64,000 nt of DNA from Proteobacteria bacterium UBA664 (GCA_002299125.1 DBNU01000061.1:514-64513), one strand, 5' to 3'; positions 31,395 to 56,026 are shown, counted from the first letter of the stretch. Translations and numbers: made by a program. The notes: generated by a model not told the origin, from the sequence alone.

Positions 31395-31407
31395 GAACGG
31401 ACGGGCT

Positions 31408-33445: not shown

Positions 33446-33553
33446 CCACAGTCCTCCGCGCGGGCCGGGCACCACCACATGCAGGCCCGGACGGCCCGCA
33501 GCCGTTGAAGTTGAGCGTAGCCCGGGCCGAGGGCACCCGCGCGGCATCCCCTC

Positions 33554-33970: not shown

Positions 33971-34611
33971 GCGACGGCCATGGAATGGCGCTGCGGATAG
34001 CGGCAGAGATCAAGGACGGGGCAATCCGCACAGGCTGGTCGTCGCGCCTTGCAGACATAGCGCCCGTGCAGGATGAGCCAGTGGTGCGCGTGCTGGAGAT
34101 AGCGGGCGGGCACGCGCCGCATGAGCGCATCCTCCACCGCGCGCACGGTGCGCCCCGGGGCGAGCCCGGTGCGATTGGCCACGCGGAAGATGTGGGTGTC
34201 CACCGCCATGACCGGCAGGCCGTAAAGCGTGTTGAGCAGCACGTTGGCCGTCTTGCGACCGACCCCGGGGAGGCGCTCGAGCAGTTCACGCTCGGCCGGC
34301 ACGCCGCCACCGTACTCGCGGGCCAGAATCGTCGCGGTCTGCCACAGGTGTCGCGCCTTCGCGTTGCAGAGACCGAGGGTACGGATGTGCCGCGCGATGC
34401 CCTCCACACCCAGGGCGTGCACGGCTGCGGCATCCGGGGCCGCGGCGAACAGTGTCTCGGTGCAGCGGTTGACGGCGCGATCGGTTGATTGCGCCGACAA
34501 CAGCACGGCGGCGAGCAACTGGAACGGGGTCGCATAGTGCAACTCCGTCTGCGGCTCGGGATTGCGGGCCGCCAGACGCTCGAAGAAGGCCGCGCGCGCC
34601 GTAGGCGCCAT
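33964..34611 (-). CDS. nth: endonuclease III
   Basis: LHYATPFQLLAAVLLSAQSTD...GVGRKTANV...CxxxxxxCxxC at the C-terminus (CKARRPACADCPVLDLC, the 4Fe-4S cluster loop). The start was set at MAPTARAAFFERLA. Confidence 0.9.
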   Translation of the reverse strand: MAPTARAAFFERLAARNPEPQTELHYATPFQLLAAVLLSAQSTDRAVNRCTETLFAAAPDAAAVHALGVEGIARHIRTLGLCNAKARHLWQTATILAREYGGGVPAERELLERLPGVGRKTANVLLNTLYGLPVMAVDTHIFRVANRTGLAPGRTVRAVEDALMRRVPARYLQHAHHWLILHGRYVCKARRPACADCPVLDLCRYPQRHSMAVAC

Positions 34612-34804
34612 GCCGCGGGCGGAGCGTGGGTCCTCGCGATCGGTGCTGGTTCCGGAGGATGCGGACGAAGGCCTTCTCGAATGGCTCATGTCGGGGTCGA
34701 TGCCTCTGGCTACCTGGGCCGCTCACCGCGATGTCCGCGTCGGGCACAAGTCAGCATGGAAGCTTGATTATACTGCCGGCCCCGCTCCGCCAACGGCACA
34801 CCTC

Positions 34805-35992: not shown

Positions 35993-36328
35993 GGAATCGC
36001 TGAACGGTGCCTACCTTGAGCTGCAAGTGGGGGGCTTGGCGATTCTGAGGCAGAGGGCCGGAGCGGGCAAAGCCCGGCGCATCGAGCCCTTGGCACCATG
36101 TCTCGGTCGGTACGCTGGCCGGTTGGGCATGCTGACGCGTCGGCCATGTCGCCCTCAATCTCGCACCGGAGGCGGTCGGCTGCTTCGTGCTCGAGCCGCC
36201 CGGCATGCAACTGCACCGGTGGAGCGAAGAGGCGCTCGTCACCCACACCGCCTACATTGGCGACCGCGACAGTCTCTATCCGCTCCGCGCGGGCGGGCGC
36301 GCCAGGCTTGCCCGGGTGAGCCAGGTCT

Positions 36329-39079
36329 CTACCCTGTCCATGCCGTCGTCATCAACACCACGAAATCCCGGCGCGACAGCACGGCCGTGCAGTCGCGCCA
36401 GTCCTTGTCGGGCGGTGCCATCGTGGCGGTGTAGCGAAGGTCGAAGCCGGTCGCCTCGCGCTGGGCGTCGATGTACTCGTCCATCTTCAGGCCCAGTGCC
36501 TCGATGTCGGCTATCCACTCGTCCTTGATGGTGTCCGGGACGGAACCGAACAGGTCGTAGCGGTCGCGCATGCGGTCCGAGAGGCGGTCGTAGATCTTCT
36601 CGTCGACGGTCTGCTCGTTGACCAGGTTGAGCATATCCACGGTGTCGCGCTTCTGGCCGAAGCGCTTGATGCGACCGATGCGCTGTTCGAGCCGAGTCGG
36701 GTTCCAGGGGAGATCGACGTTCACCAGCGTGCCCAGGGTCTGCAGGTTCAGGCCCTCGCAGGCGGCGTCCGTGGCCACCATGATCCGGATCTGGTGCTCG
36801 GCCACCCTCTTCTTGAGCGTCTCGCGTTCGCAAGACACGCTGTCGCCGCGCTGGTAGAGCCGGCTGCGGCCGGCACCGGCGTACAGACCAATCGCTTCGT
36901 CCGGGTAGCGCCGGGCGAGCTGCTCCACCACCCAGCGCGCGGTGTCGTAGTACTGGCTGAAGATGATCACACCCAGATCCAGCCACTTCTCGCGGGCCAG
37001 GTAGTACAGCAGTGCCGCCAGCTTGGGGTCGGACTCGATCCGCTCCAGCCGGTTCAGCAGCCGTTCCAGGGCCTCGCGCTCTTCGCCCGTTTCAACGGCC
37101 AGTTCTGCGTCGCCCTCTTCTTCCTCGTCGCGCAGGGTCTGGCCCTGCAGCAGCGCTCGCACGGTGTTCAGCCCGGCGTGGATCGACGAGCAGATGCGCT
37201 GCTCGACCAGGTTCTTCATGAACCCGCCGCCGCCCCCGCGACCCTGGCCACGCGCGCTCAACGCCTTGCCGAAGGCGCGTGCCTCACGGTACGCCTCGCG
37301 AAAGTCGTCGCTGGTGCGCAGGGCCTTGGCCTCGAACAACGCATCGAAGCCCTGGGGCTCGCGGACGAGCTGCCGATCGGGATGCACGTCCACGCCCACC
37401 CGTGCCAGCAGGCCGGCGTCCTCCAGGCTGACACGCTTGCGCAGCACCACGTGGCGCACCAGGGGGTTCTCGCGCTGGAAGAAGGTGGCGCCGGACACCT
37501 GACGGTGCAGTTCGTCTTCCAGGATCTCGCGCGTGTCCTCGCTCAGGTCGGCCAGCGACCGGGCGGTCTGGGTCTCGTCGTTCACCAGTCCCAGATCCTG
37601 GCGGATCGCGCTGAACAGCCGTCTTGCGCGCGGTTCGCGTGTGGAGTCCACCAACGGCAGCGGGGACCGCAGCAGCTCCCACGCATGTTCGGCCGAGGTC
37701 ACCTCCTGCCGGCCCGACAGAATCTCCAGCACCTCGCCAGCCCGGTGCCAGGCTGCGAAGTCGTTGCCCAGCACGAAGTTGCCGCGCCCCTGGTGCAGGA
37801 TGCCGATCAGGTCCCACAGGTCCTGCGGTTGGGTCTGGATGGGCGTCGCCGTGCCCAGCAACACATGCTCGGATCGGGCCGCGATCTCGCGCATGAAGGC
37901 CAGCAGTTCGTTCGGCGTGCCCGCGTCGGTGCCGAAGCCCTGCCGCGTGCGGGCCTTGTGCGCCTCGTCCAGGATCACCAGGCCAAAGCGCAGGCCCAGC
38001 AGATGCTGCTTCTCGGCCGACTGACGCATCATCAGCCCGGTCGAGACGATGCCGATGCGCAGCGGGCAGCGCGCGATGTGCTCGCGGCCGGCAGGCGAGA
38101 TGGCCCGTTCCTGGTCATCGAGCCAGACCTTGCGCACGGTGTCCCAGCGCGCGCACGGGATGCCCAGCTTGTCCAGCATCTCGGTCTGCCACTGCTCGCA
38201 CAGCGTGGCCGGGGCGAAGATCACCACCGGCCGCCGGGCTTGCTGCTCACGGTCGGCCAGCAGGCACAGCGTCAGCGCCGCGGTGCCGAGCGACAGCGTC
38301 TTGCCCAGGCCTACCTCGTCGGCCAGCAGCAGGCGCACCACCCTGTGCATCTGGTGGTGGCGCAGGCACTCGGTCACGAAGCCTTGCTGCCACGGCTGCA
38401 GCGCCAGGCCCTCGCGGTACAGCGGCGACTCGATCAGCGCGGCCGGCGCCACGTCGTCAACGCCCTCGATCTCATCGAACACCACCTCGCGGCGGTAGCC
38501 ACGCCGGTGCACCTCACGGATCACGGCCTCGGGCAGCGGGCGCGCGACGTTCCACAGGAAGTCGAACTCGCTCTCGATCCAGGCCACACCTTCGGGCGAC
38601 TCGTCTTCCCACAGGATCTCGTAGTGGCGCTGCCAGCCGCTGCGGGTCTCGTTCATCGAGCCGATGAAGCCCAGCCTGCGCCCATCGGCCAGATCGATGA
38701 CGCCGGCCTTGCCGTGCACGAAGCCGCACACGCTGTCGGGCGCCACGCGCACCGCCTGGCCGTGCCGCTGCAGGAAGGCATCCAGCCGGCGGTAGCGGTC
38801 GCGGTTCAGCAGTGCCTCGGCCTCGATGGCACCCTCGTTCCAGCGGCCCAGCATGCGGGCCTCGCGCAGTTGAGCCACCTTCAGGTCGTCGGGGTGGATG
38901 TCGACGTTGCACACGATGCGGACGTGCGGAATGCCTTCCAGCAGCTCGTGCGCCACCTCGAACAGCGAGCTGGTGAAGTAGCCCGCGATGCGCCGGTAGC
39001 TGCGCGCGCCCTGCAGGTGCTCCAGCAGAAAGCTGGCGTCCAGCCGGTGCGTGCGTGACGAGAAGCGCCGAATCGACAC
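36329..39079 (-). CDS. SNF2-family helicase with N-terminal phospholipase D-like (HKD) nuclease domain
   Basis: The HKD motif is FVHGKAGVIDLADGRRLGFIGSMNET. SNF2 motif I is LLADEVGLGKTL, motif II is LDEAHKAR, and helicase C motif VI is QRIGRIKRFGQ. It is the last gene of the co-directional island. Confidence 0.85.
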   Translation of the reverse strand: MSIRRFSSRTHRLDASFLLEHLQGARSYRRIAGYFTSSLFEVAHELLEGIPHVRIVCNVDIHPDDLKVAQLREARMLGRWNEGAIEAEALLNRDRYRRLDAFLQRHGQAVRVAPDSVCGFVHGKAGVIDLADGRRLGFIGSMNETRSGWQRHYEILWEDESPEGVAWIESEFDFLWNVARPLPEAVIREVHRRGYRREVVFDEIEGVDDVAPAALIESPLYREGLALQPWQQGFVTECLRHHQMHRVVRLLLADEVGLGKTLSLGTAALTLCLLADREQQARRPVVIFAPATLCEQWQTEMLDKLGIPCARWDTVRKVWLDDQERAISPAGREHIARCPLRIGIVSTGLMMRQSAEKQHLLGLRFGLVILDEAHKARTRQGFGTDAGTPNELLAFMREIAARSEHVLLGTATPIQTQPQDLWDLIGILHQGRGNFVLGNDFAAWHRAGEVLEILSGRQEVTSAEHAWELLRSPLPLVDSTREPRARRLFSAIRQDLGLVNDETQTARSLADLSEDTREILEDELHRQVSGATFFQRENPLVRHVVLRKRVSLEDAGLLARVGVDVHPDRQLVREPQGFDALFEAKALRTSDDFREAYREARAFGKALSARGQGRGGGGGFMKNLVEQRICSSIHAGLNTVRALLQGQTLRDEEEEGDAELAVETGEEREALERLLNRLERIESDPKLAALLYYLAREKWLDLGVIIFSQYYDTARWVVEQLARRYPDEAIGLYAGAGRSRLYQRGDSVSCERETLKKRVAEHQIRIMVATDAACEGLNLQTLGTLVNVDLPWNPTRLEQRIGRIKRFGQKRDTVDMLNLVNEQTVDEKIYDRLSDRMRDRYDLFGSVPDTIKDEWIADIEALGLKMDEYIDAQREATGFDLRYTATMAPPDKDWRDCTAVLSRRDFVVLMTTAWTG

Positions 39080-39083
39080 CGGT

Positions 39084-40505
39084 TCAGTGCCCCGGCCTCA
39101 CGCCGCCCTTGCGTCCGAGGCCGAAGCCCACACGGTATAGATCAGGCATGTCGACGCAGCCATCCTTCTTCATCTCCATCAGCCCTAGGCGTTGCAGGTC
39201 CTCGCGAAGCCCATCCCATCCGCGAGCCTGCGCGGGGAGTCGATCTGAAGGAATGCTCTGAGGTCCATCGGGAAATCTTGCGGACCAACGCGCCACGACC
39301 GCTTCGAATTCACCAGGGACGTTCATCCCTTTGAGCTCTGACAGCACTTCAGGAATCCACTGATAGTCCTCAGCAATTTCCTGAACACGAATCTCCGAGG
39401 CCTTCTGGATACCCCGTTTGATGCTCTCGTAATGCAGCGCGAACACATGCTCTGCATGGCGTTCAGCGGAATCCTCGGCGCTCTTCCGAATTGCAGCAAG
39501 GAACGAGCGGGGGGAGGTACGGCCTTGACCGTCGGCCAAATGGCTGACGGACCACGTATACGGTACTCCCCGTCGCTTGTCGCGACCCATCCACGGGCCC
39601 GCCAGACGCTCGAAGGCCTTGCGCTGCGCTTCCGATTCGATCTTCATTTCATCAGCAACGCGCCAGGTTCCTTGCTGATCACTGTGAGCGCACAGGGCAC
39701 GCATACGCTCGCCATGTACGGCGGGTGCATTGATCAAGCGTTGCCAGAGCAGCCCGTGCAAATCGTGGCGAGCCCAAGTCAATTCGGCCTTGGTCGCAGT
39801 GAGCTTGGAGGCATCGGGAAAGTTGAACACCGTGCGTTCAGCTTGGTCCTCCCGAAGGAAGACCTTGCCGTAGAGCCCGGGGAAGGACTTCAGCCAAAGG
39901 ATGGCCCGCAATAATCCACGTACGATCTCGTCCATCCGTTGCCAGATGCTGCTGGTGCGGTCCAGCGCGTCAAAGACGACAAGGCAACGCGGGTGTCTGG
40001 GCAGTTGCATCAGCCGTGCGGCCCCCTCGGGGTCGGACTTGAGCCAGGCAACCGTCTCGCCCCAGTCCTGGCAGGGAACTCTCTGACCGGACATATCTGC
40101 CACCCATCGAAGGATCACTGCACGCCACAAGTCATATGGATCACCGTCATGGTCCAGGAATGTCGCGAACACGTCGGCATTTGGGTAATTTGCGATGTTC
40201 TCGGTATTGGCGAAACCGAGCCTGACGGCGGCACCGGTGAGTTCGGATGCTCCGCTCCCCAGGAGCAGCCGCAACGAATCCAACTGCAAAGCAGCCGTCC
40301 AGAAGGACTTTCCCACGCCGCGGCCGCCGACGACGACATGCGCATCAAGACGCAGCGCCTTCAGGTGCGACGGCGGGACGTAGAGCAGCCCTGGCTCCGG
40401 TGTCTCGCCGAAACTGCTGGTCTCGAGCGGTGCGGCAAGAATGGCTGCCCGCAAGGCTTGAGCTTCCGTCAGGTTCTCAGTCATGGAGTATCCCCCTGAC
40501 TCCAT
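39084..40505 (-). CDS. uncharacterised P-loop NTPase (Walker A GGRGVGKS; candidate Walker B LVVFDALD)
   Basis: 473 aa. I recognise no family. It is tightly coupled to its neighbours, 4 nt from the SNF2 start and overlapping the ParA-like stop. Confidence 0.45.
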   Translation of the reverse strand: MESGGYSMTENLTEAQALRAAILAAPLETSSFGETPEPGLLYVPPSHLKALRLDAHVVVGGRGVGKSFWTAALQLDSLRLLLGSGASELTGAAVRLGFANTENIANYPNADVFATFLDHDGDPYDLWRAVILRWVADMSGQRVPCQDWGETVAWLKSDPEGAARLMQLPRHPRCLVVFDALDRTSSIWQRMDEIVRGLLRAILWLKSFPGLYGKVFLREDQAERTVFNFPDASKLTATKAELTWARHDLHGLLWQRLINAPAVHGERMRALCAHSDQQGTWRVADEMKIESEAQRKAFERLAGPWMGRDKRRGVPYTWSVSHLADGQGRTSPRSFLAAIRKSAEDSAERHAEHVFALHYESIKRGIQKASEIRVQEIAEDYQWIPEVLSELKGMNVPGEFEAVVARWSARFPDGPQSIPSDRLPAQARGWDGLREDLQRLGLMEMKKDGCVDMPDLYRVGFGLGRKGGVRPGH

Positions 40506-41817
40506 CGATCAGAGGCCCGAAGATGCTGTTGACTTCTGCATCGTCGATGACAGCCAAGCGCCCCTGCAGAGATTGCAGTCCGGCGAAGCTCCGGTGCCAG
40601 TGCACGACCCACGGGTAATGCGGGGCACCTTCGTCGGCCTCGTCGAAATTCCATCCCTCCACTACTTCACCGACTCGCCAAACCGCGTGACCGCCCACCC
40701 TCTCGTAGGAGATAGTGCCAGGGTCCGGAGGTGGAATATCGTCGTACAGCGTATCGGAAAAGACGCGATAGGCCCGCTCACGCAGCCCTGCGAGATATGC
40801 GATCCGGTCCACTTCCGGAATCATGGCGGCAACATGCCTCAGGCGCTCTCGGATCTGGGGTGCCACACCGCCCTGCCGCCAGTGCTCAAACAGAATTCGA
40901 TAGCCAGTCCACGTCTGACTTCCCTCGAAGGCGAACAGCAGTACCAGATTGGCACCAAGATCGGTGACACACGCCGATGCGACCTCATCGATCCCGGCTC
41001 GCGAATCAATGAGCACGACATCGGGCTGCGTACGCACCTCGAGCATTTGCAAGAGCCTTTGCAAGCGAGCAGACCAGGTCTCGCGAGAGCCATCATCGCT
41101 GACCTTGGGCATCCAGATGCGACCAAGCTTGAGCACATACTCTCCCGGTTCTGCCCCATGGGCTGGCACCACGTAGATCTGCCCATCCCGCGACAGATCG
41201 CTAGTCGCAACCATGCCGTCGAGCACGCTGTCCGCGTTGTCGACCAAGTCTTCCACCAGCCAGTCGGTGATCCCATACATGGGCTGGCGCCCCGCGGGCA
41301 GCAGACTGGACGACAGCCCGGGGGATTCCAAGTCCAGATCGAGCACCAGCACCCGCTTACCCAGCTGGGCGAGCTTCCAGGCACAAGCTGCAAGCGCAGT
41401 GGAGCGTCCAACGCCCCCCTTGATGGAGAAGAACACGACGCGCGGCGCACCTACGGTTTCAGGGGCGATCTGCGTCCAGTTGCCCTCCGTCGCCAGCCGA
41501 TCAACGACCCACACATGATCGAATCCTTGTAGCAGGCGGCGGGCCCCACCGGCGCAAGCCGTCTCCAGATCCACATCGTAGAGAACGCTGACTTCTGCCT
41601 CATACGCGTGGGGACAGATTCGCCCGGCGAGCACCTGGTAAAGCGCCTGAAGCGATTCGCGCAATACGTCGTCGGTCTCGACATTCTCTGGCGCGATGAA
41701 TCGAACGCGGCCGTTGAGGTCGCGGTTGATCACCAGCCAGTCCAGTTGCGTGAGCTGGCGGCGCTGCGCCTCCAGCACCTCGGCGACCGCAGGCAGGATC
41801 TGATCGAAGATCGTCAT
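40477..41817 (-). CDS. ParA/MinD-like ATPase with about 150 aa N-terminal extension and atypical deviant Walker A (KGGVGRST)
   Basis: FSIKGGVGRSTALAACAWKLAQLGKRVLVLDLDLESPG has the ParA/MinD-type P-loop with the signature Lys, but with Arg at the canonical GK[ST] position. The start is at the internal ATG (MTIFDQILP). Confidence 0.55.
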   Translation of the reverse strand: MTIFDQILPAVAEVLEAQRRQLTQLDWLVINRDLNGRVRFIAPENVETDDVLRESLQALYQVLAGRICPHAYEAEVSVLYDVDLETACAGGARRLLQGFDHVWVVDRLATEGNWTQIAPETVGAPRVVFFSIKGGVGRSTALAACAWKLAQLGKRVLVLDLDLESPGLSSSLLPAGRQPMYGITDWLVEDLVDNADSVLDGMVATSDLSRDGQIYVVPAHGAEPGEYVLKLGRIWMPKVSDDGSRETWSARLQRLLQMLEVRTQPDVVLIDSRAGIDEVASACVTDLGANLVLLFAFEGSQTWTGYRILFEHWRQGGVAPQIRERLRHVAAMIPEVDRIAYLAGLRERAYRVFSDTLYDDIPPPDPGTISYERVGGHAVWRVGEVVEGWNFDEADEGAPHYPWVVHWHRSFAGLQSLQGRLAVIDDAEVNSIFGPLIDGVRGILHD

Positions 41818-42254
41818 ATCTTCAAACCTTCCTTGCGGGCGGTCTGCATGAGATTCGCAACAAGAGTCGCACCACGCCGATGCCTTTCCACACATAGCAG
41901 ATCGAAGCAGGACTCATGGGCGTATCGCTGCGATACGGACCAGTCCGAAAAAGGATTCGATGTCGGCACAGACAACCTGGTGGCCAGCGCATGGCCCACC
42001 AAGTGCGTCTGATAGCGCGACCAGGCAGTCGCCGGCTTCTTGTCTTCCATGATGTGGACGAAATCCTGCTTCGGTTCAAGGATGCCGCTTGGAACCAGCT
42101 TCTCGCTGAGCGCCTTCAGCCCACATTCGGCTGCCAGTCCGTACAGATGATCCGCATTCGCCAATCGGCCGGCCAGGAACAAGCGCTCTGCATCGTCCAT
42201 GTGCCGTTCATGTGCATTCAGGAAGTCCGCCTGCATCCTCTCACCTTCACACAC
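41814..42254 (-). CDS. hypothetical protein (about 140-146 aa), no recognised domain
   Basis: The ORF overlaps the MTase stop by 8 nt and the ParA-like start by 4 nt (translational coupling). An alternative start at 42236 is possible. Confidence 0.35.
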   Translation of the reverse strand: MCEGERMQADFLNAHERHMDDAERLFLAGRLANADHLYGLAAECGLKALSEKLVPSGILEPKQDFVHIMEDKKPATAWSRYQTHLVGHALATRLSVPTSNPFSDWSVSQRYAHESCFDLLCVERHRRGATLVANLMQTARKEGLKI

Positions 42255-45204: not shown

Positions 45205-45213
45205 GTGGCGGCT

Positions 45214-45456
45214 TCAGGCGCGGCAGGCCTGGTCCGGATCATTGGGTTTGTCGGGCCGGGTCATGGCGACCCGGCCGGCGCGCAGCAGGGGGCGCAGGTC
45301 GTTCTGGCGCACGGTCTCGGCCTTGCGGCCCGGCAGCGCCGCGATCTCCGCCGCCCGCCAGGGGCGCAACTCGCAGAGCGCCACCACCAGGTCTTGCACC
45401 TCCTGGGGCGGGCGGCGCTGGCTGATGGCGCCGAGCCGCGCGGCCAGGGCGTCCAC
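45214..45456 (-). CDS. standalone winged-helix DNA-binding domain protein (Fic/ATPase C-terminal-like wHTH); possibly a gene remnant
   Basis: 80 aa. LRPLLRAGRVAMTRPDKPNDPDQ matches the conserved ...GLIEMTIPDKPNS..QKY C-terminal HTH tail seen in many Fic and AlbA_2/ATPase proteins. It lies 9 nt upstream of the MTase start. Confidence 0.4.
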   Translation of the reverse strand: MDALAARLGAISQRRPPQEVQDLVVALCELRPWRAAEIAALPGRKAETVRQNDLRPLLRAGRVAMTRPDKPNDPDQACRA

Positions 45457-45459
45457 GGC

Positions 45460-45882
45460 TCATGCCCCCCGAATCGAGCGCACGGCGATGCTCTGCACCC
45501 GGAACATCGGCTTGGTGGGCTTCTCGGCGCTGATGAGCTCTGCTACGCCCGCCTTCGCTGCGTGTGCCACATGGATCGCATCCATCGCAGCGACGCCATG
45601 GCTCTCGGCGATGACAAGCGCCTGTTGCAAGGCCGTGGGGTCCCACGCGATGTTCTCGGCTTGGCTGAAGACTTCCTCGTAGAACTGCACTTCTTCTTGC
45701 TGCTTGTGAAAGCGCGCCTTGGGCACGGCCTCCAGACGAACCGCATCGCTGACGACCAGAGAGCGCTCTGGATCGTCAAGCACACTCAGCGCCCTGCGTC
45801 CAAGTTCACCCTCCCCCTTGAAGGCAGCGATCAGCAGACAAGTGTCGATGTAGGTGCGCTTAGGCATCGCCCACTCCGCCAC
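45460..45882 (-). CDS. PIN domain nuclease (VapC-like toxin)
   Basis: YIDTCLLIAA (the first acidic residue of the PIN fold) and AMDAIHVAHA give the PIN signature. The real start may be MPKRTYIDT at 45867. Confidence 0.65.
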   Translation of the reverse strand: MAEWAMPKRTYIDTCLLIAAFKGEGELGRRALSVLDDPERSLVVSDAVRLEAVPKARFHKQQEEVQFYEEVFSQAENIAWDPTALQQALVIAESHGVAAMDAIHVAHAAKAGVAELISAEKPTKPMFRVQSIAVRSIRGA

Positions 45883-46192
45883 GGCGATGCCGCAACTCGT
45901 CGTCCAGCGCGGTCGCGGACATCAGCTTCCCACCGCTGGCGATATATGCCTGGCGCAGGGCCAAGAGCTTTTTGCCCAGTCCCGTTCTGGGCTGGAACCC
46001 GACAATCCAGTCTTCGGCCTGCAAGGACGCGCGCGAACCGGTCGTCAAAGCGGTGCCTGCTTCGTAGCGAATGGCCCAGTCGGCCACGCGTGCAGGTTGT
46101 TCTGGTCGATCTGTGGCTTCATGCCGATAGGCAAGGACCGGCGTGCTCCAGAGTGGCAGCGGTGGTACGTCCAATGCGAAGGCAAACATCAT
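45860..46192 (-). CDS. putative antitoxin partner of the PIN protein (family not recognised)
   Basis: A small ORF upstream of and overlapping the PIN gene, in the usual antitoxin-toxin order. Its start codon abuts the TIGR04255-like stop. The true start may be internal. Confidence 0.3.
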   Translation of the reverse strand: MMFAFALDVPPLPLWSTPVLAYRHEATDRPEQPARVADWAIRYEAGTALTTGSRASLQAEDWIVGFQPRTGLGKKLLALRQAYIASGGKLMSATALDDELRHRRGGVGDA

Positions 46193-46932
46193 CAGTACTC
46201 CGGGTCCAACCTGGCGACTGATTCTTCAGTCAGGATCTGGCGGAAGAACATGGCCTTCGAGCGGTCATGCAGCTCGTCGAGCTGCGCGCGAACTGAGCTC
46301 CAATCGCCTGTCGGGTTCTCTGGCAGGGTCTCCAGATCAACGATGGTGCCTTTCAGTTGCGACCCCGAAAGGTTGACCTGCGCTGCGGTAGCGATCTGGA
46401 CAACATGCAGGTAGTCGTCGTCAGGTATCTCAACCCGCAACTGCACGCGGTCGCTGATCGTGCGGTCGCCCACTGTCAAGGCCACTCTGAGCACTGAAAG
46501 ATCGTCCGCCAGCTCCTCACCAAGCAGGTCGATGTAGCGCAGCGAATGACGCTGAAGCTGAGGGATGAGGGTGCTGCCTTCGACAATCCTGGAGAGCGCC
46601 TCGACAGCATCCTTGAATCGAGCCCATCCTACGTAAGGCCTGCGGCAGTTGAGGGTGATCACGCGATCGCCTACTTGCCAGATGAAGCCCCCCCCCGGCT
46701 CCTCCATCAGCACCTTCGGTGTGAACCGCAGGTTGGGGTCGATCTGGGCGATCACCGCTGGAATGTCGGCCGACGGCAGTCGCCGCAGTTGCAGGGCAGG
46801 ATGGCTCTTCCTCAGCTCGGTAAAAAGAATCCCAGGCAAGACATCACCGATGCCCTGACCGCTGTCGAACTGGGCCTGCCAGATCGCTTCGATGATGGGC
46901 TCTTTCCTCAGCCGCTTCGGCAGTGCGTTCAT
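46192..46932 (-). CDS. hypothetical protein, TIGR04255-like (about 246 aa)
   Basis: The N-terminus LPKRLRKEPIIEAIWQAQFD resembles the conserved start of TIGR04255-family proteins, as far as I recall; this family assignment is unverified. Confidence 0.4.
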   Translation of the reverse strand: MNALPKRLRKEPIIEAIWQAQFDSGQGIGDVLPGILFTELRKSHPALQLRRLPSADIPAVIAQIDPNLRFTPKVLMEEPGGGFIWQVGDRVITLNCRRPYVGWARFKDAVEALSRIVEGSTLIPQLQRHSLRYIDLLGEELADDLSVLRVALTVGDRTISDRVQLRVEIPDDDYLHVVQIATAAQVNLSGSQLKGTIVDLETLPENPTGDWSSVRAQLDELHDRSKAMFFRQILTEESVARLDPEY

Positions 46933-46956
46933 CGGCTCACCTCTGCTTCCTCGTCT

Positions 46957-47661
46957 TCATATCGTTGTCCCGTCGCCGAATAGGTCCAAAGTGGGGCGAC
47001 CAACTTCTTGAGTGTGACCGCCGCGCCTGGCGCGGGGAGAGAGCAACTCGCTCTGCGCCACGTCGCCCAGCGCGTGGCGCAGGGCCAGCCGCCAGCCCTT
47101 GTCGCCATCACCGATGCCGCCCGTGCTCATCGCGGTCATGCCGAACAGCCACCAGCGCTCCTCGGGGCGCAGCGCCAACCAGTTGCGCACGGCGACGGGG
47201 ATCTTCTCCATCTCCATGTGCTCGACGGCCCAGACCAGCACGCAGAGCTCCTTGCCCAGCAGCCGATCGACCAGGTTGTCGCCGGCCTTCCAGGCGCTGG
47301 GCTTCAGGTTGTGCGTGCTGAGCCGGGCATTGAAGGCGCGTTGCACCTCGGCGCGGATGGCGGTCCAGCGCGCGCGGTTGAGCACGGCCCGGTCGATCAC
47401 GGAGTGCTCGTCGCTCAGGGCCTGCAGGCCGAGGTACTCGCTCACCTGCACGGGGGCGGTGTTGCTGCGCGGAACGATCACCTTGAAGTGGTGCGGATCC
47501 GACGTGGCAGGCACACCGAAGCCCAGGGTTGGGCGTGCGTCGGCCGCCGCAGCTCTGGCCGTGGCCGATGCGGGCGCTGCGGCGTTGGCGTTGAGTACCG
47601 CGGCCGCGCGGGTGGTCCTGGGCTTGGTCACGATCGGTGATGCCCGGCCGCCCGAAGCCAC
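46957..47661 (-). CDS. DUF3780-like protein
   Basis: About 200-234 aa, immediately downstream of the DUF499 gene, which is the usual position of DUF3780 in DUF1156/DUF499 loci. The assignment rests on context and general resemblance and is not motif-verified. The Ala-rich N-terminal 40 aa may be non-coding. Confidence 0.4.
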   Translation of the reverse strand: MASGGRASPIVTKPRTTRAAAVLNANAAAPASATARAAAADARPTLGFGVPATSDPHHFKVIVPRSNTAPVQVSEYLGLQALSDEHSVIDRAVLNRARWTAIRAEVQRAFNARLSTHNLKPSAWKAGDNLVDRLLGKELCVLVWAVEHMEMEKIPVAVRNWLALRPEERWWLFGMTAMSTGGIGDGDKGWRLALRHALGDVAQSELLSPRARRGGHTQEVGRPTLDLFGDGTTI

Positions 47662-47712
47662 AGAGCGCTCCCTCGGGGGGCAGCGAGCGAGAGCGAGCTT
47701 GGGGGTCTCATG

Positions 47713-50700
47713 TCATGCCTCCTGCACTACGTCGCCGGGCTTGAGCTCTAGGCCCACCAGCCTGGCGAAATCCTTGGCCGCAAAGCCGGTGTCGAAGTGG
47801 GCGCCGTCACTGATGTTCACGACCACCGGCGCCTGGTCTTCGGCCAGCAGCTGGCGCAGGCTGTTGATCACGCCCTCGATCACGCTGGCAGTGACCTCGC
47901 GCTCCTGGAAGCGTACGGTCACGGTCTTCTCGCCTTCACCGATCTCGATGCGCACGCCCTTGAACAGCGTGCCGGGTTGATCGCGGAAACGGTTGATGAC
48001 CCCGAACACGCGGTCGGTGGTGTCCAGGCCGATGCGCTTGGGCTGCAGCTTGACGGACTTGGTGTCATTGATCTGGACGGTCTTGTCGCCGCTGGCCGGG
48101 ATCTGGAAGTCCGCCGTCTTGTTGGCCTCGCCGGCGTGGGCGTAGACGAGCAGTCGGGCCGCGGCGGCACCGATCTCGAACGGGCCCTCGTAGGGCAGGC
48201 CATCGCGCGGGTTGGAGCCGTCGAGCGTGTAGGTGAGCGTGGCCTTGGGCGTGCACGCCAGCGTGACGCGGCGCTTGTCGGCGGCCGGCTCCACCTGGTG
48301 ACGGATCTTCAGTTCGGCGGTCCAGCGAACGGGCGTGCCGGTTTCGTAGTGGCCGGTGGTGTCGCGGGCCAGGAAGTACAGCGTGCCTTCCGTCGTGGTG
48401 AAGCTGTCGAGGTTGTCGATGGACTGGCCGTTGACCAGCCCCTCGGGGCGGGTGGCGTAGACCACCACCGGGCTCTCACCCGCGTGGCGCGGCGTGAGGC
48501 TCAGGATGGTGGCGCCGGTGTCCGGCTGGCTGCCGACGACCGAGACGTTGACCGTGGTCTTGTCCTTCGGGAACGGGCCCTTTTCGATGTACCCGTCCTC
48601 ACCCAGGCGCCAGCGGCCTTGCCTGAGGGCCTCGGCCTTCAGCGTGTCCATGCCGCCCGAGCCGGGCATCCAGGGCCAGTCGGGATTGCTCTTGGCGCGC
48701 GCCACCACATCCTTCCAGGGCGTGCGGCGGTTGTCCTTGCCCGAGGGCCACAGCACCTCTTCCGCCATGGCGAAGTACTCGCCGAAGCTGTCAGTCAGGT
48801 TGGCGGCCAGCTTGTAGTTGGCGCGCGGGCTGGCAAGCAGGGTTTCGATCTGCGCCTCGGCGGACTGCTCGCCCTTGCCGAGCTTGAGGCCGTTGTCGAT
48901 GGTGACGTTGGCCAGGAAGTGCCGACCGTCGATGGGTTCGGTGCTCGGGAAGTAGACGCGGTTGTAGGCCGCAGACAGAGCCTTCGCGAAACGGTCCTCG
49001 GCCTCCTCGAGCCGATCACGCGCCTCCTCGAAGAGGGTGTCGCCAGCCTTCAGACGCTTGTGGATCTGCTCGATGGCGTATAGCTCTCGCAGGCGGTCTT
49101 CCACGGCTTCGGCCAGGTGACTGTCCTGGCCGGTGAGCACGAGGAGGTTGTTCTTCTCCTGCTGGTAGTCGAAGAAGTTCTGCAGCTCGCTGGGCGGCAC
49201 CTTGCCGTCCGGCTTGATGACGATGAGGGTGCGCGGGCCGCTCAGGCGGATCTCGTCGAGGCGAGGCAGCACCTGCACGTCCTGGTACGCCCGGCGCCGA
49301 TCCGGCTGGAGGATGCCGGTGAGCCGGTTGATCAGCGCCTGGTCGATCTTGGGCTGCGGTACTTCCTTGGCGTTGCGCTCGATCTGGCGCGAGAGGTTCT
49401 CGGTCTCCTTGACGAACAGGCGCTGGTCTTCGCGGTGCAGGTACCAAGCTTGCTCGCGCAGACGCTGCAGCGCTTGCAGGAACTCGTCGGGCTTGCGACC
49501 GGGCGCGGCGAGGAACTCGATGACCTCGCTCTCTGACAGGCCGATGCGGCCACCCACCGCGCGTGACAGCGACGATGCCAGCAGCAGCGTCATCACCTGG
49601 CGGGATGCGTCGGTATCAAGTTCGAAGTCGATGATCTCGGCAATGGCGTTGCCTTTGTCGGCGATGTCCCGCGTGACAGCCGGCAGCAGCTTGGGGGCGA
49701 TGCGCTCGATCTCGTCACGCACCTGGTCATCGTTCAGAGCCAGGTGCTGGGTGCCGATGAGGTGGACGTCATCGTCCTCGCGCAGCGCCACGCTCTTGAG
49801 CAGCCGCGCCGTGAACTGCATCAAGCCGCGGGTCTGACGGAAGCCCTCGTTCTCCTTGAACAGGGCAACGAGGTGCTTGAACGACGGATGGAAGGGGTAG
49901 GTCTCCCGCACCTGTTCGGCGATCTGCTCAATGCTGGCTGCGACGATGTAGCCCGCGTCTTCGGCTTTTTTGATCTGCTGGGCATACTCCTCGGCCACGT
50001 CGGCGATGACGCGATCGTCGGGCATCATGTCTATGAGACGCGTCTTCAGGATCTCATAGATCTCGTTGCCTGCCAGTTGCACCGGCGTGATCGTCATCGC
50101 CTGGCGGCGGGTTTCCTGCTGCAGGTTCGAGATCGCGTCGGCCAGCGCCTTGGTCTGCGCCTGGTAGCTACCGGAGAGGTTGGCGACGACGATGCAGCAG
50201 TTAGGCAGTTCCAGCGCCGCGCTCATCAGCGTGGCCAGCGAGAACACCACCATGTTGGCCAGCGTTCCCTGTCCGAAGACTTGGGTGCTGGCGTTGTCTA
50301 GGTAGGGCGGGAGTTCGTCGAGGAGGATGAGGGTCGGCTTGTTGCCGATGATCTCTTTCCACTTCGCCTGGTCGACCGACTTCGGGCCGTTTACCCAGTA
50401 GGCCTTGATGGCTTCGGGCTCGCCGAGCTGCGTCGCGATATCGCCCCAGATGTAGTTGTCGGGGGTGATCCGGCCATTGAAGGCCGCTATTCGCGCCTGG
50501 CCGAAGTCGATGCGGTCCTTCAGGTCGGCAGGCAACACCTCCTGCCGCAAGTGCGGGTGGCGCGCCAGCAGGCCCAGCGCGATCATCATATGCGTCTTGC
50601 CGCCGCCCATCGCCTGGGTCAGTTCGAAGACCGCCTGGTCCGACTTGCCGGACAGGCGCAGCAGGCCCTCGCGGAACAACTGCGCCATGCCGTGGGTGAC

Positions 50701-50778
50701 GAAGTTGCGCGAGAAGAACTCGCGCCCGTCTCCAGCGTCGTGAATGACGTCGGCCAGGTTCTCGATGCCCTGGCTCAT
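47713..50778 (-). CDS. DUF499 domain-containing AAA/P-loop ATPase (defence-island associated)
   Basis: It has a Walker A (MGGGKTHMMIALGLL) near the N-terminus and is about 1021 aa, consistent with DUF499. The start was set at the internal ATG (MSQGIENLADVIHD); the frame stays open upstream to 51207. Confidence 0.75.
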   Translation of the reverse strand: MSQGIENLADVIHDAGDGREFFSRNFVTHGMAQLFREGLLRLSGKSDQAVFELTQAMGGGKTHMMIALGLLARHPHLRQEVLPADLKDRIDFGQARIAAFNGRITPDNYIWGDIATQLGEPEAIKAYWVNGPKSVDQAKWKEIIGNKPTLILLDELPPYLDNASTQVFGQGTLANMVVFSLATLMSAALELPNCCIVVANLSGSYQAQTKALADAISNLQQETRRQAMTITPVQLAGNEIYEILKTRLIDMMPDDRVIADVAEEYAQQIKKAEDAGYIVAASIEQIAEQVRETYPFHPSFKHLVALFKENEGFRQTRGLMQFTARLLKSVALREDDDVHLIGTQHLALNDDQVRDEIERIAPKLLPAVTRDIADKGNAIAEIIDFELDTDASRQVMTLLLASSLSRAVGGRIGLSESEVIEFLAAPGRKPDEFLQALQRLREQAWYLHREDQRLFVKETENLSRQIERNAKEVPQPKIDQALINRLTGILQPDRRRAYQDVQVLPRLDEIRLSGPRTLIVIKPDGKVPPSELQNFFDYQQEKNNLLVLTGQDSHLAEAVEDRLRELYAIEQIHKRLKAGDTLFEEARDRLEEAEDRFAKALSAAYNRVYFPSTEPIDGRHFLANVTIDNGLKLGKGEQSAEAQIETLLASPRANYKLAANLTDSFGEYFAMAEEVLWPSGKDNRRTPWKDVVARAKSNPDWPWMPGSGGMDTLKAEALRQGRWRLGEDGYIEKGPFPKDKTTVNVSVVGSQPDTGATILSLTPRHAGESPVVVYATRPEGLVNGQSIDNLDSFTTTEGTLYFLARDTTGHYETGTPVRWTAELKIRHQVEPAADKRRVTLACTPKATLTYTLDGSNPRDGLPYEGPFEIGAAAARLLVYAHAGEANKTADFQIPASGDKTVQINDTKSVKLQPKRIGLDTTDRVFGVINRFRDQPGTLFKGVRIEIGEGEKTVTVRFQEREVTASVIEGVINSLRQLLAEDQAPVVVNISDGAHFDTGFAAKDFARLVGLELKPGDVVQEA

Positions 50779-51304
50779 CCGGTAGTCGTGGATGGCCGCG
50801 TTGAAGCGGCAGGCCTGCTTGACGGTCTTGATCACGCAGTGGCTCCCTTGGCCGCGCGTTTTTTGTTGGCGCAGGCACCGGTGGCGGTGCCCTTGACCCG
50901 GTAGTGCTTGCGGATCGGCAGAGCGTGGTCTCGTCCGGGCGCGTCGTCCAGTAGTTCGAGCCCCGCAAAGCGGCGCATTGGCTTCTCCTCGCAGGGTGAT
51001 CTTCCAGCGCCGGACCCGACAGCGCGCGCCACTATTGCAGGAAGCAGATCGTGGCAGGGTCGCGAGCGGATCAGTGGACGAACCGCGCGACCCGCCGCCG
51101 GGTAGTGCGGCCCGACGACCGTCGGCAGCGTTGCCCAGGGCACCACGGACTCCCTCTCCGCCAAGAATAACTCCCGGCGCGCCTGCCTCGTCTGCCCTCC
51201 CAAGCAATGCTGGCAGAGGTCATCCACTTCATCTTCATTGCCTCCACCACATCTTGGGCCACAGCGCCGCATACATCCAGATCACCGAGTTATTCTGCGG
51301 TTCC

Positions 51305-51907
51305 TTAGCCCGTGGTCGAGTCACCGGCTCGCCGCGCGGCCCGTGCTCGCGTGATCGCTGCCTGCACGCGCTCCCGCCGCTCGGCGGCATCGGCCGGCAC
51401 CTCTTCGAGCAGTGGTCCGGTGGTCTCCTCACGCGCACGGCGTGCATGCTGTGCCGCGTGGCGCAGACGCCAGCGGAGCACGAGCGCGGACTCCGGTTCC
51501 GCCGCCGGCTCCGGATGGATGCAGTCCACCGGGCAGGGCGGCAGGCACAACCCGCAACCGTTGCACTCCGCCGCGAGGATGTCGTGCATCTGGCGTGCGG
51601 CCCCGACGATGGCGTCCACGGGGCAGACGGCGAGGCACTTCGTGCAGCCGATGCAGGCCGTGGGGTCGATGCGGAAGCGACGCGGCCCGGCCCAGGCGGG
51701 GCCCGTCACGACCGGCGGACGTGGCAGGCCGGTGAGCGCGGCGAGGGCATCGAGCAGCGCGTCGCCCCCGGGCGGGCAACGGTCGATGCCGGCCTCGCCC
51801 CGGCTGATCGCCTCCGCGTAGGGCAAACAACCGGCGTGGCCGCAGGCCCGGCACTGCAACTGGGGCAGCAGGGCATCGATGGCAACGGCGAGCGCCTCGG
51901 TGGACAT
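51305..51907 (-). CDS. RnfB-like 4Fe-4S ferredoxin-type protein (Rnf/Rsx subunit B homologue lacking the N-terminal membrane anchor)
   Basis: LPQLQCRACGHAGCLPYAEAISRGEAGIDRCPPGG (the RnfB Cys-rich domain) is followed by two CxxCxxCxxxCP ferredoxin motifs. Confidence 0.7.
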   Translation of the reverse strand: MSTEALAVAIDALLPQLQCRACGHAGCLPYAEAISRGEAGIDRCPPGGDALLDALAALTGLPRPPVVTGPAWAGPRRFRIDPTACIGCTKCLAVCPVDAIVGAARQMHDILAAECNGCGLCLPPCPVDCIHPEPAAEPESALVLRWRLRHAAQHARRAREETTGPLLEEVPADAAERRERVQAAITRARAARRAGDSTTG

Positions 51908-51920
51908 GACCGCGCCGCGC

Positions 51921-55995: not shown

Positions 55996-56026
55996 GATGC
56001 GCCACGGCGACCCTGAACCCGCCGGC

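What the first reader, a model, noticed from the sequence alone, without database searches (positions are those of the whole stretch)
36329..51207. 15 kb, 11-gene co-directional island: DUF1156 methylase, DUF499 ATPase, DUF3780 and PLD-SNF2 helicase core with extra ATPases, a PIN toxin-antitoxin and a wHTH; a candidate multi-component phage-defence system
Eleven minus-strand genes run from 51.2 kb down to 36.3 kb with tiny gaps or 1-29 nt overlaps, which is the signature of a single operon. In order they encode a DUF499 P-loop ATPase (Walker A GGGKTH), a DUF3780-like protein, a TIGR04255-like protein, a small antitoxin-like protein, a PIN nuclease, a standalone wHTH, a roughly 985 aa DUF1156 N6-adenine methyltransferase (DPPY), a small unknown protein, a ParA-like ATPase, an unknown P-loop NTPase, and a helicase fusing a PLD HKD nuclease to SNF2 motifs. 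The DUF1156/DUF499/DUF3780/SNF2-PLD combination was predicted as a restriction-modification-like defence system in defence-island surveys, and I believe it corresponds to the recently characterised MADS system; I cannot verify gene-by-gene identity from memory. The accessory genes wedged inside the operon (PIN-antitoxin pair, wHTH, ParA-like, P-loop NTPase, small protein) are not part of that core as I remember it. They make this locus a compositionally unusual, possibly undescribed variant. The locus sits between housekeeping rlmI and rnfB-like/metG with no integrase or tRNA in the window.
Basis: partly seen in the sequence, partly recalled or inferred. Interest (0 to 1): 0.9.

Follow-up and report, generated by a model that had tools for sequence, protein, structure and literature searches.

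The report
MANTIS defence operon with nested cassettes
This 15-kb island is a copy of the known four-gene MANTIS (Gao_RL) methylation-and-restriction phage-defence system, and two separate, swappable gene cassettes sit between its genes, so it is a nested defence island and not a new 11-part machine.

Summary
The 11 co-directional minus-strand genes are real. One correction: mtsA starts at 50835, not 51207. The four core genes (DUF499, DUF3780, DUF1156 methylase, PLD-SNF2) pass NCBIfam equivalog cut-offs. They carry catalytic residues at the positions mutated in Pseudomonas MANTIS (MtsA K80/E174, MtsD H122/K260). This system is MANTIS (also called Gao_RL or BREX-related type 2), not MADS.

A 92%-identical relative has rnfB and rlmI abutting, so the island is a clean 15.3-kb insertion (about 35994-51326). 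It has no tRNA, integrase or flanking repeats.

The seven accessory genes form two autonomous cassettes plus one gene relic.
- Small protein + ParA-like + P-loop NTPase is the PADLOC candidate PDC-M28. It stands alone in 43 of 62 species-level loci and sits in MANTIS, always between mtsC and mtsD, in 15.
- TIGR04255 + 110-aa protein + PIN is a conserved triad. It is absent from PADLOC 2.0 and also occurs alone.
- The "wHTH" is the 3' remnant of a displaced Schlafen-type gene.

MANTIS backbones 93-94% identical to this one lack PDC-M28. In other MANTIS loci the same two slots hold DarTG, Schlafen or AIPR genes. Embedding of this kind is already described. The uncatalogued triad and the MANTIS/PDC-M28 link are the modest new leads.

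The parts
35994..51326 (.). Whole inserted island (about 15.3 kb) at the convergent rnfB|rlmI junction
   Evidence: Relative L175 is 92% identical over window 26076-35993 and 51327-62036. In L175, rnfB and rlmI abut with a 4-bp overlap. GC is 0.59-0.62 in four of the island's 1-kb bins (39-42, 43-44 and 46-47 kb), against about 0.68 in the flanks.
47713..50835 (-). mtsA: DUF499 AAA+ ATPase of the ORC/Cdc6 clade (1040 aa), with Walker A K80 and Walker B E174
   Evidence: NCBIfam NF042962 1518 bits (cut-off 1200). PADLOC DUF499 1436 bits. Fn3-like hits. Start and motifs.
46957..47661 (-). mtsB: DUF3780 protein, the co-activator of methylation
   Evidence: Pfam DUF3780 257.6 bits. NF042961 277.8 bits against a cut-off of 200.
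46192..46932 (-). Embedded cassette 1, gene 1: TIGR04255-family protein (246 aa)
45860..46192 (-). Embedded cassette 1, gene 2: conserved 110-aa protein of unknown family (putative antitoxin or adaptor)
   Evidence: No Pfam, NCBIfam, PADLOC or PHROG hit. Always lies between TIGR04255 and the toxin gene. The C-terminal half is conserved.
45460..45867 (-). Embedded cassette 1, gene 3: PIN-domain (VapC-like) RNase toxin
   Evidence: Pfam PIN 37.1 bits. Acidic residues D13, E51, D101 and E120 are invariant. 68-87% identical in other triads.
45214..45456 (-). wHTH ORF: 3' relic of a displaced Schlafen(AlbA_2)-HATPase_c_4-wHTH gene
   Evidence: 79-86% identical to the C-terminus of the intact 661-aa gene in L097/L098. 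DNA homology starts at 45447, just after the PIN stop. L095 keeps a relic 338 bp longer.
42247..45204 (-). mtsC: DUF1156 N6-adenine DNA methyltransferase (985 aa), DPPY 601-604, with a divergent target-recognition region
   Evidence: NF042963 1381 bits against a cut-off of 1000. PADLOC DUF1156_MTase 1419 bits. Motifs. Residues 601-985 are 90-100% identical to L095, but residues 501-600 only 34-36%.
41814..42236 (-). Embedded cassette 2, PDC-M28A: small protein (140 aa) of unknown fold
   Evidence: PADLOC PDC-M28A 134 bits. Conserved polar residues R17, H18, D21, R30, N33, D35, E43, K47, R110 and H125 in 75 homologues.
40477..41817 (-). Embedded cassette 2, PDC-M28B: ParA/MinD-like ATPase with an invariant KGGVGR deviant Walker A
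   Evidence: PADLOC PDC-M28B 591 bits. NF047398 200 bits. K159-G-G-V-G-R164-S is invariant in 63 homologues.
39084..40505 (-). Embedded cassette 2, PDC-M28C: ORC/Cdc6-STAND-like P-loop NTPase (473 aa)
36329..39079 (-). mtsD: PLD(HKD) nuclease fused to an SNF2/SF2 helicase (916 aa), with H122, K260 and DEAH at 371
   Evidence: NF042964 1196.5 bits against a cut-off of 1100. PADLOC PLD_Helicase 1364 bits. Pfam hits. Motifs.
50836..51304 (-). Non-coding leader upstream of mtsA, with no MtsR-like repressor gene
   Evidence: The translation looks non-coding. The 48-aa gene call here has no homologue in any of the fetched loci searched. Homology to sister MANTIS operons begins only 26 bp upstream of mtsA.

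Best explanation
The island is a complete MANTIS system (mtsA-mtsB-mtsC-mtsD; also called Gao_RL or BREX-related type 2). It was acquired horizontally at the rnfB|rlmI junction of an uncultured bacterium.

Inferred from the family's published mechanism, not shown here:
- MtsA (AAA+) loads the methyltransferase MtsC onto an asymmetric 6-bp site.
- MtsB stimulates adenine hemimethylation of host DNA.
- Unmodified sites on incoming DNA, especially inverted pairs, license the dimeric PLD-helicase MtsD to cut.
- This copy has its own MtsC target-recognition region, so it should have its own recognition motif.

Two self-contained modules ride inside the operon and are probably co-transcribed with it.
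1. Between mtsB and mtsC sits a TIGR04255 + 110-aa + PIN triad. I read it as a toxin-antitoxin-like or abortive-infection module. The PIN RNase would be the toxin, and the two upstream proteins would restrain it or sense infection.
2. Between mtsC and mtsD sits PDC-M28: a small protein, a KGGVGR ParA-like ATPase and an ORC/STAND-like NTPase. I read it as an independent NTPase-based sensor system whose effector is still unknown.

The 80-aa wHTH is a scar of an earlier tenant, a Schlafen-type gene. The cassettes are exchanged between related MANTIS operons, most simply by homologous recombination through the conserved flanking mts genes. They act as back-up layers, not as MANTIS subunits.
For: Core identity:
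- All four proteins pass NCBIfam equivalog cut-offs NF042961-4. They match the PADLOC DUF499, DUF3780, DUF1156_MTase and PLD_Helicase models end to end.
- MtsA K80/E174 and MtsD H122/K260 sit at exactly the residue numbers mutated in the P. aeruginosa system. DPPY is present.
- The architecture matches the type-2 definition: a standalone DUF3780, an N-terminal HKD on the helicase, and Fn3-like domains in DUF499.

Insertion: the empty site in L175, with 92% identical flanks.

Cassette autonomy:
- The PDC-M28 trio stands alone in Allochromatium and Aeromonas.
- It stands alone in 43 of 62 assessable species-level loci. Neighbours within about 1.2 kb of the non-MANTIS trios show almost no recurrence (89 of 97 are singletons).
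- The triad stands alone in Methylacidiphilum.

Recent gain or loss:
- The L095, L097 and L098 backbones are 93-94% identical from 26 bp upstream of mtsA to 9 bp past mtsD. They have a 14-bp mtsC-mtsD spacer in place of the 3168-bp M28 cassette.
- On an MtsD tree, loci with M28, with AIPR and with an empty slot are interleaved.

Slot usage in 80 MtsB-anchored loci:
- mtsB|mtsC (61 informative): empty 31, DarTG 22, TIGR04255-type cassette 3, Schlafen types 3.
- mtsC|mtsD (41 informative): empty 35, AIPR 4, M28 2.

Scars: the wHTH relic and DarG 3' relics.

Precedent: 7 of 9 Hma-embedded candidates gave phage defence, and auxiliary effectors are reported next to BR systems.
Against: - Nothing here is experimental. 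Methylation, restriction, toxicity and co-transcription are all inferred.
- PDC-M28 has no recognisable nuclease or toxin, and to my knowledge it is untested.
- MANTIS is PDC-M28's only recurrent neighbour: 15 of 62 loci, plus 4 with mtsC or mtsD fragments, and always in the same slot. Strict slot specificity could therefore mean functional coupling and not just recombination history.
- The 110-aa protein has no antitoxin signature.
- The samples are the 80 best matches per scan, not random draws.
- PADLOC-DB 2.0.0 dates from 2023 and DefenseFinder could not be run, so the triad may already have a name elsewhere.
- No promoter or terminator signal was informative.
Confidence: 0.8

Rival explanations
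1. All 11 genes form one integrated, novel multi-component system: a MANTIS variant in which the ATPases, PIN pair and wHTH are working subunits.
For: - Tight co-directional packing with overlaps.
- M28 is found only in the mtsC|mtsD slot. 24% of assessable species-level M28 loci are inside MANTIS, and 6% more carry mts fragments.
- The same two-cassette layout recurs in L059 and L093.
- M28C shares the ORC/Cdc6-BrxC-like fold with MtsA.
Against: - Both cassettes occur alone in unrelated contexts.
- Backbones 93-94% identical to this one lack M28.
- The slots hold unrelated tenants elsewhere: DarTG, AIPR and Schlafen genes.
- P. aeruginosa MANTIS works with only MtsABCD.
- The wHTH is a gene fragment.
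Confidence: 0.07
2. The embedded genes are not immune modules. They are selfish or maintenance elements: the PIN triad would be an addiction toxin-antitoxin stabilising the island, and the ParA-like trio a remnant partition or mobile-element function.
For: - The PIN domain is VapC-like. Some triads carry a MazF-like toxin instead, and IS605 has disrupted it.
- M28B is ParA/MinD-like.
- Distant M28C homologues lie on plasmids and next to an integrase.
Against: - No ParB or centromere partner is present.
- The catalytic P-loop lysine of M28B is invariably arginine.
- The M28 trio is chromosomal among housekeeping genes in L002.
- Genes embedded in such systems are mostly defence genes, with 7 of 9 tested positive.
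- A TIGR04255 homologue sits in the accessory region of a P2-like temperate phage.
Confidence: 0.15
3. The locus is a MADS (methylation-associated defence system) operon.
For: Both are methylation-based, multi-gene and ATPase-containing, and both were studied in P. aeruginosa.
Against: - No island protein hits a PADLOC mad model, among the best 25 families for MtsD and all listed families for the others.
- MADS is an eight-gene operon whose mandatory components are MAD6-8.
- The MANTIS paper lists MADS as a separate system.
Confidence: 0.01

Closest known systems
MANTIS (Gao_RL / Gao_29; Type-2 DUF499-centred BREX-related system), P. aeruginosa AZPAE15024 prototype
   Same: Same four genes in the same order. 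Same domain architectures. Catalytic residues at the same positions (MtsA K80/E174, MtsD H122/K260, MtsC DPPY). All four NCBIfam equivalogs passed.
   Different: This copy has no MtsR (Arc/CopG) repressor gene upstream. It has a different MtsC target-recognition region. Seven extra ORFs are nested in the mtsB|mtsC and mtsC|mtsD junctions. Activity is untested.
Embedded defence systems (Hma-embedded candidates and PADLOC PDC systems; Payne et al. 2024 preprint)
   Same: Co-oriented cassettes nested between genes of a methylase/ATPase/helicase system. Three of the genes here are PDC-M28A/B/C.
   Different: [quoted passage not shown] Here the host is MANTIS, the slots are tenant-specific, and one cassette (TIGR04255-small-PIN) is absent from PADLOC-DB 2.0.0.
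Hma (Type-1 BR) and Type-3 BREX
   Same: Homologous ATPase-methylase-helicase triad. MtsA hits HmaC, MtsC hits HmaB and PglXI, and MtsD hits HmaA and BrxHII.
   Different: Those systems lack DUF3780 and an N-terminal PLD on the helicase. BREX uses PglZ. The matches to their models are far weaker than to the MANTIS-type models.
VapBC type II toxin-antitoxin and tripartite TA modules; HEC-03 and HEC-07 RNase defences
   Same: A PIN (or MazF-like) RNase toxin gene preceded by small overlapping genes. There is a weak fold-level echo between TIGR04255 and the AdoMetDC-like sensor domain described for HEC-07.
   Different: The module has three genes, not two. The middle protein matches no antitoxin family. 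TIGR04255 has no assigned function. No toxicity or neutralisation data exist.
MADS (mad1-8)
   Same: [quoted passage not shown]
   Different: Different gene set and number, and no profile matches. It is not this system.

Membership tests
MANTIS / Gao_RL / BR type 2 | Four co-oriented genes: DUF499 AAA+ ATPase, standalone DUF3780, N6-adenine methyltransferase (DUF1156), PLD(HKD)-SF2 helicase | tested here: met
   Pfam, PADLOC and NCBIfam hits. NF042961-4 are all above their equivalog cut-offs. The order A-B-C-D is preserved.
MANTIS / Gao_RL / BR type 2 | Intact catalytic motifs needed for function: MtsA Walker A/B, MtsC DPPY, MtsD HKD His and Walker A Lys | tested here: met
   K80, E174, DPPY 601-604, H122 and K260 are present. 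The MtsA and MtsD positions equal those mutated in the prototype.
MANTIS / Gao_RL / BR type 2 | Type-2 hallmarks: the helicase has an N-terminal HKD where a TUDOR domain would be, and DUF499 often carries FnIII-like domains before its C-terminal RRM | tested here: met
   PLDc_2 at residues 19-176 of MtsD. CHB_HEX_C_1 and Fn3_assoc hits near the MtsA C-terminus. The RRM itself was not examined.
MANTIS / Gao_RL / BR type 2 | Adenine hemimethylation of an asymmetric 6-bp site that depends on MtsABC | not testable with these tools
   Needs methylome sequencing of a strain that expresses the operon.
MANTIS / Gao_RL / BR type 2 | Restriction of phages or plasmids that requires MtsABCD and favours inverted unmodified sites | not testable with these tools
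   Needs plaque and transformation assays.
PADLOC candidate PDC-M28 | Three adjacent co-oriented genes matching the PDC-M28A, B and C profiles | tested here: met
   134, 591 and 633 bits, essentially full length, in the order A-B-C. The trio is conserved in more than 60 fetched loci.
PADLOC candidate PDC-M28 | Anti-phage activity | not testable with these tools
   It is a candidate by guilt-by-embedding only. No paper mentions PDC-M28.
MADS (mad1-8) | Presence of the mandatory MAD6, MAD7 and MAD8 proteins and the eight-gene operon | tested here: not met
   No mad model appears among the PADLOC hits of any island protein. Only rlmI, outside the island, hits mad2 at 72 bits.
VapBC-type type II toxin-antitoxin | PIN toxin with conserved acidic residues | tested here: met
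   Pfam PIN hit. D13, E51, D101 and E120 are invariant.
VapBC-type type II toxin-antitoxin | Upstream antitoxin with a recognisable DNA-binding antitoxin domain (RHH, AbrB, Phd or HTH), in a two-gene module | tested here: not met
   The 110-aa protein has no family hit even at E <= 5. The conserved unit has three genes, including TIGR04255.
Hma (BR type 1) | Helicase with C-terminal REase (HmaA), no DUF3780, no PLD | tested here: not met
   DUF3780 and an N-terminal PLD are present. Matches to the Hma models are far weaker than to the MANTIS-type models.

The most novel reading that the evidence does not exclude
The TIGR04255 + ~110-aa + RNase toxin triad (PIN here, MazF-like in a sister clade) is an undescribed three-gene abortive-infection or toxin-antitoxin-type defence module. 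Together with PDC-M28, whose only recurrent genomic partner is the mtsC|mtsD junction of MANTIS, it forms slot-specific back-up layers that fire when phages evade or inhibit MANTIS. MANTIS operons would then act as exchangeable 'cassette racks' for second-line immunity.
Probability: 0.3. Interest if true: 0.6.

Novelty: new member of a known kind. Interest (0 to 1): 0.4.

Why it matters
The locus gives the correct name and a published mechanism to what looked like an exotic 11-gene system. It also shows, with an empty site and near-identical sister operons, how a MANTIS operon is inserted and how its internal cassettes are swapped.

If the embedded modules are real defences, the locus supplies two ready-made test cases for layered immunity:
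- an untested PADLOC candidate (PDC-M28) whose only recurrent genomic partner is MANTIS;
- an uncatalogued TIGR04255-small-RNase triad.

It also offers a natural MtsC specificity variant for methylome work.

Tried and rejected
- **Solved structures.** A PDB sequence search for MantiS-type structures (MtsB, MtsC, MtsD) found nothing specific. Searches with M28C and TIGR04255 also found nothing.
- **Literature.** Searches for PDC-M28, KGGVGR, TIGR04255 and Sll1717 returned no papers. The supplements of the BREX-related paper do not mention DarT, AIPR or a ParA-like partner.
- **Unavailable library.** The AFDB50 fold library could not be used.
- **Small proteins and ATPase termini.** Relaxed Pfam scans of M28A, the M28B termini, the M28C C-terminus and the 110-aa protein found nothing.
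- **Insertion signatures.** I looked for att sites, direct or inverted repeats, tRNA and integrase at the island borders. Only a 'CTAA' is shared between the two borders.
- **Promoters and terminators.** The scan was uninformative.
- **48-aa gene call upstream of mtsA.** It has no homologue and is probably spurious.
- **Organism name.** Exact look-ups gave only the metagenome contig. The nearest named rnfB relatives are about 56-60% identical (Casimicrobiaceae, Burkholderiales and Immundisolibacter MAGs), so taxonomy stays vague.
- **M28A as a HEPN-like RNase.** I considered this because of its conserved Arg and His residues. No profile supports it, so I do not claim it.

Full report
**1. Observation**

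The window has about 68% G+C. Eleven minus-strand ORFs run from 51.2 kb down to 36.3 kb.

The longest ORF (47713-51207) is over-extended. Three facts show this:
- Its DUF499 profile matches start at residue 126.
- The first 124 codons read like translated non-coding DNA.
- An in-frame GTG at 50835 follows an AGGGAG Shine-Dalgarno sequence.

The source contig (JGI metagenome 3300031990, Ga0326358_1000022, 73 kb) was annotated independently. Its gene calls agree: 1040 aa for this gene, 135 aa for PIN, 140 aa for M28A and 446 aa for M28B.

With these starts, the ten junctions are +51, +24, -1, -8, +3, +9, +10, -4, -29 and +4 nt. The window holds no tRNA gene.

**2. The core is MANTIS, not MADS**

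The four large core proteins pass NCBIfam equivalog cut-offs:

| Protein | NCBIfam model | Score (bits) | Cut-off |
|---|---|---|---|
| DUF499 | NF042962 | 1518 | 1200 |
| DUF3780 | NF042961 | 278 | 200 |
| DUF1156 | NF042963 | 1381 | 1000 |
| PLD-domain protein | NF042964 | 1196.5 | 1100 |

They also match the PADLOC DUF499, DUF3780, DUF1156_MTase and PLD_Helicase profiles essentially end to end.

Three papers place this gene set:
- A 2026 comparative study defines it as the Type-2 DUF499-centred BREX-related system. The definition includes a standalone DUF3780, an HKD nuclease at the helicase N-terminus and frequent FnIII-like domains in DUF499.
- A September 2026 preprint renames Gao_RL/Gao_29 as MANTIS and gives its mechanism. 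MtsA loads MtsC onto DNA, and MtsB stimulates hemimethylation of an asymmetric 6-bp site. Restriction needs all four proteins and favours inverted pairs of unmodified sites. That preprint writes 'DUF3870' for what Pfam calls DUF3780.
- MADS is a separate eight-gene system.

With the corrected start, MtsA carries Walker A K80 and Walker B E174, and MtsD carries HKD H122 and Walker A K260. These are the very residue numbers mutated in the Pseudomonas prototype. MtsC carries DPPY at 601-604.

No island protein hits a PADLOC mad model.

**3. It is an insertion, and the empty site exists**

A relative (L175, JGI 3300032103) is 92% identical in DNA over window 26076-35993 and 51327-62036. In L175, rnfB and rlmI abut, with their convergent stop codons overlapping by 4 bp. 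The inserted segment is therefore about 35994-51326.

The two borders share only 'CTAA', which preserves both stop codons. There are no long direct or inverted repeats.

A more distant relative (L177) carries a DUF3368/UPF0175 toxin-antitoxin pair and a Cas fragment at the same place. This junction therefore looks like a cargo hotspot.

G+C falls to 0.59-0.62 in four of the island's 1-kb bins. These bins cover the two embedded cassettes and the variable part of mtsC.

**4. Cassette 2 is PDC-M28**

The small protein, the ParA-like ATPase and the P-loop NTPase match PADLOC PDC-M28A, B and C at 134, 591 and 633 bits. PDC systems are 'phage defence candidates' proposed because they are embedded in BREX, DISARM or type I RM systems. 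They are untested, and no paper mentions PDC-M28.

What the three proteins look like:
- M28B is a ParA/MinD-class NTPase. Its deviant Walker A is invariably K-G-G-V-G-R-S, with arginine in place of the catalytic lysine.
- M28A has conserved polar residues but no detectable family.

M28C homologues are 52-93% identical across Proteobacteria, Acidobacteria, Chloroflexi, Spirochaetes and Chlorobi.

Where the trio is found:
- It stands alone among housekeeping genes in Allochromatium, and next to an integrase in Aeromonas.
- In one genome per species, 62 loci could be assessed. 43 are not in MANTIS. 15 are embedded in MANTIS, always between mtsC and mtsD. 4 carry only mtsC or mtsD fragments beside the trio.
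- Among the non-MANTIS trios there is no other recurrent neighbour: 89 of 97 flanking ORFs within about 1.2 kb are singletons.

**5. Cassette 1 is a conserved triad, and the wHTH is a relic**

TIGR04255 (98.9 bits), the 110-aa protein and PIN travel together:
- Embedded between mtsB and mtsC in Acidithiobacillus caldus. There AIPR occupies the mtsC|mtsD slot.
- Embedded in a Methylococcales MAG (L059), together with PDC-M28. This is nearly the window's layout.
- Standing alone in Methylacidiphilum caldifontis.

In Chloracidobacterium (L093) and in L172, TIGR04255 and a ~124-aa protein are followed by the two halves of a PemK/MazF-like toxin split by an IS605 TnpB. Each Pfam match is weak on its own (E 0.006 and 0.017), but the two cover complementary parts of the profile. 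This suggests a conserved two-protein front end with a swappable RNase toxin.

None of the three proteins hits PADLOC 2.0. No literature mentions TIGR04255.

A 29%-identical homologue lies in the accessory region between the integrase and the portal gene of the P2-like Pseudomonas phage Dobby. The family also matches phrog_5464.

The 80-aa 'standalone wHTH' is 79-86% identical to the C-terminus of an intact 661-aa Schlafen(AlbA_2)-HATPase_c_4-wHTH gene. That gene occupies the same slot in the sister operons L097 and L098. DNA homology begins at 45447, right after the PIN stop. L095 keeps a relic 338 bp longer. The wHTH ORF is therefore a scar of cassette replacement.

**6. The slots are general features of MANTIS**

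I examined 80 metagenomic loci anchored on MtsB.

| Slot | Informative loci | Contents |
|---|---|---|
| mtsB\|mtsC | 61 | empty 31, DarT-DarG 22, TIGR04255-type cassette 3, Schlafen-type genes 3, an MtsB-DUF4357 fusion 2 |
| mtsC\|mtsD | 41 | empty 35, AIPR 4, PDC-M28 2 |

Each tenant type was seen in only one of the two slots. DarG 3' fragments lie beside some TIGR04255 triads.

The operons closest to the window (L095, L097, L098) are 93-94% identical from 26 bp upstream of mtsA to 9 bp beyond the mtsD stop. They have 14 bp between mtsC and mtsD where the window has the 3168-bp M28 cassette.

On an MtsD neighbour-joining tree, loci with M28, with AIPR and with an empty slot interleave.

I infer repeated cassette exchange, most simply by homologous recombination between MANTIS operons through the conserved flanking genes. 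This step is inferred, not shown.

**7. Specificity**

Against L095, MtsC residues 601-985 are 90-100% identical. Residues 501-600 are only 34-36% identical, and residues 251-500 are 52-72%. The MANTIS preprint shows that swapping the MtsC target-recognition domain changes specificity. This copy probably recognises a different motif from its closest relatives. That is an inference.

**8. Regulation**

Many MANTIS loci carry a ~63-aa ribbon-helix-helix (Arc/CopG-like) ORF overlapping the start of mtsA. It fits the description of 'MtsR' in the preprint.

Homologues of this ORF also precede several standalone PDC-M28 trios.

The window has none. Its 469-bp leader is unique, and the 48-aa gene call in it has no homologue in the fetched loci searched.

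**9. Verdict**

The island is a defence island with the predicted core. But the system is MANTIS, not MADS. The accessory genes are two autonomous embedded cassettes plus one gene relic. They are not new subunits. The composite layout is rare but not unique.

The core is a new member of a known, experimentally characterised family. The modestly novel leads are:
- the uncatalogued TIGR04255-small-RNase triad;
- the slot-specific link between PDC-M28 and MANTIS.

I score interest at 0.4.

Noticed in passing
L089:3856-4047 (A. caldus); e.g. L112:6634-6810, L013:7957-8133, L017:7850-8023, L004:8115-8228: A ~63-aa ribbon-helix-helix (Arc/CopG-like) ORF overlaps the start of mtsA in many MANTIS loci and is probably MtsR. 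Homologues also sit directly upstream of standalone PDC-M28 trios. The window has no copy.
   Followed up: partly
L177:7303-8273 (relative with rnfB 80% identical): At the same site downstream of rnfB, this relative carries a DUF3368/UPF0175 toxin-antitoxin pair and a CRISPR-associated fragment in place of MANTIS. The rnfB|rlmI junction therefore looks like a hotspot for defence or TA cargo.
   Followed up: partly
window 43400-45200 (MtsC residues ~1-600): MtsC is a mosaic. Its C-terminal 385 residues are 90-100% identical to the sister operon L095, but residues 501-600 are only 34-36% identical. This looks like a swapped target-recognition region and suggests a different methylation motif.
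   Followed up: partly
L093:9571-10903 and L172:8226-9781: In two TIGR04255-containing loci, an IS605-family TnpB gene splits a PemK/MazF-like toxin gene into N- and C-terminal halves. In this clade the triad's toxin is MazF-like and not PIN, and it has been inactivated.
   Followed up: partly
L095-L174 (e.g. L112:10567-12287): DarT-DarG, a known anti-phage toxin-antitoxin system, is the commonest tenant of the mtsB|mtsC slot: 22 of 61 informative MANTIS loci. AIPR is the commonest tenant of the mtsC|mtsD slot (4 of 41).
   Followed up: yes
L010:1-11400 (Lysobacteraceae MAG): This looks like a decayed MANTIS. Only fragments of mtsA and mtsC remain, while DarTG, an AAA_21 + Schlafen pair and the PDC-M28 trio are retained in order. 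The cassettes seem to outlive their host system.
   Followed up: partly
L187:1108-1854 (Pseudomonas phage Dobby, MK034952.1): A full-length TIGR04255-family gene (29% identical, only partly annotated in the record) lies in the accessory region between the integrase and the portal gene of a P2-like temperate phage.
   Followed up: partly
window 60952-61226: A 72-bp tandem repeat (3.7 copies, 76% matches) lies in a region that, from the relative's gene calls, appears to fall in a 123-aa ORF without Pfam hits. The relative L175 has the repeat too.
   Followed up: no
window 14000-16000 and 21000-27000: Further stretches of lower G+C (0.63-0.65 against about 0.69). They might be other acquired segments but were not examined.
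   Followed up: no
L183, L184, L185 (IMG/VR contigs): M28C homologues (62-63% identical) occur on three viral or proviral contigs. Distant homologues (31-45%) occur on plasmids of Tistrella, Burkholderia, Enterobacter and Streptomyces. The Tistrella locus keeps the three-gene layout.
   Followed up: partly
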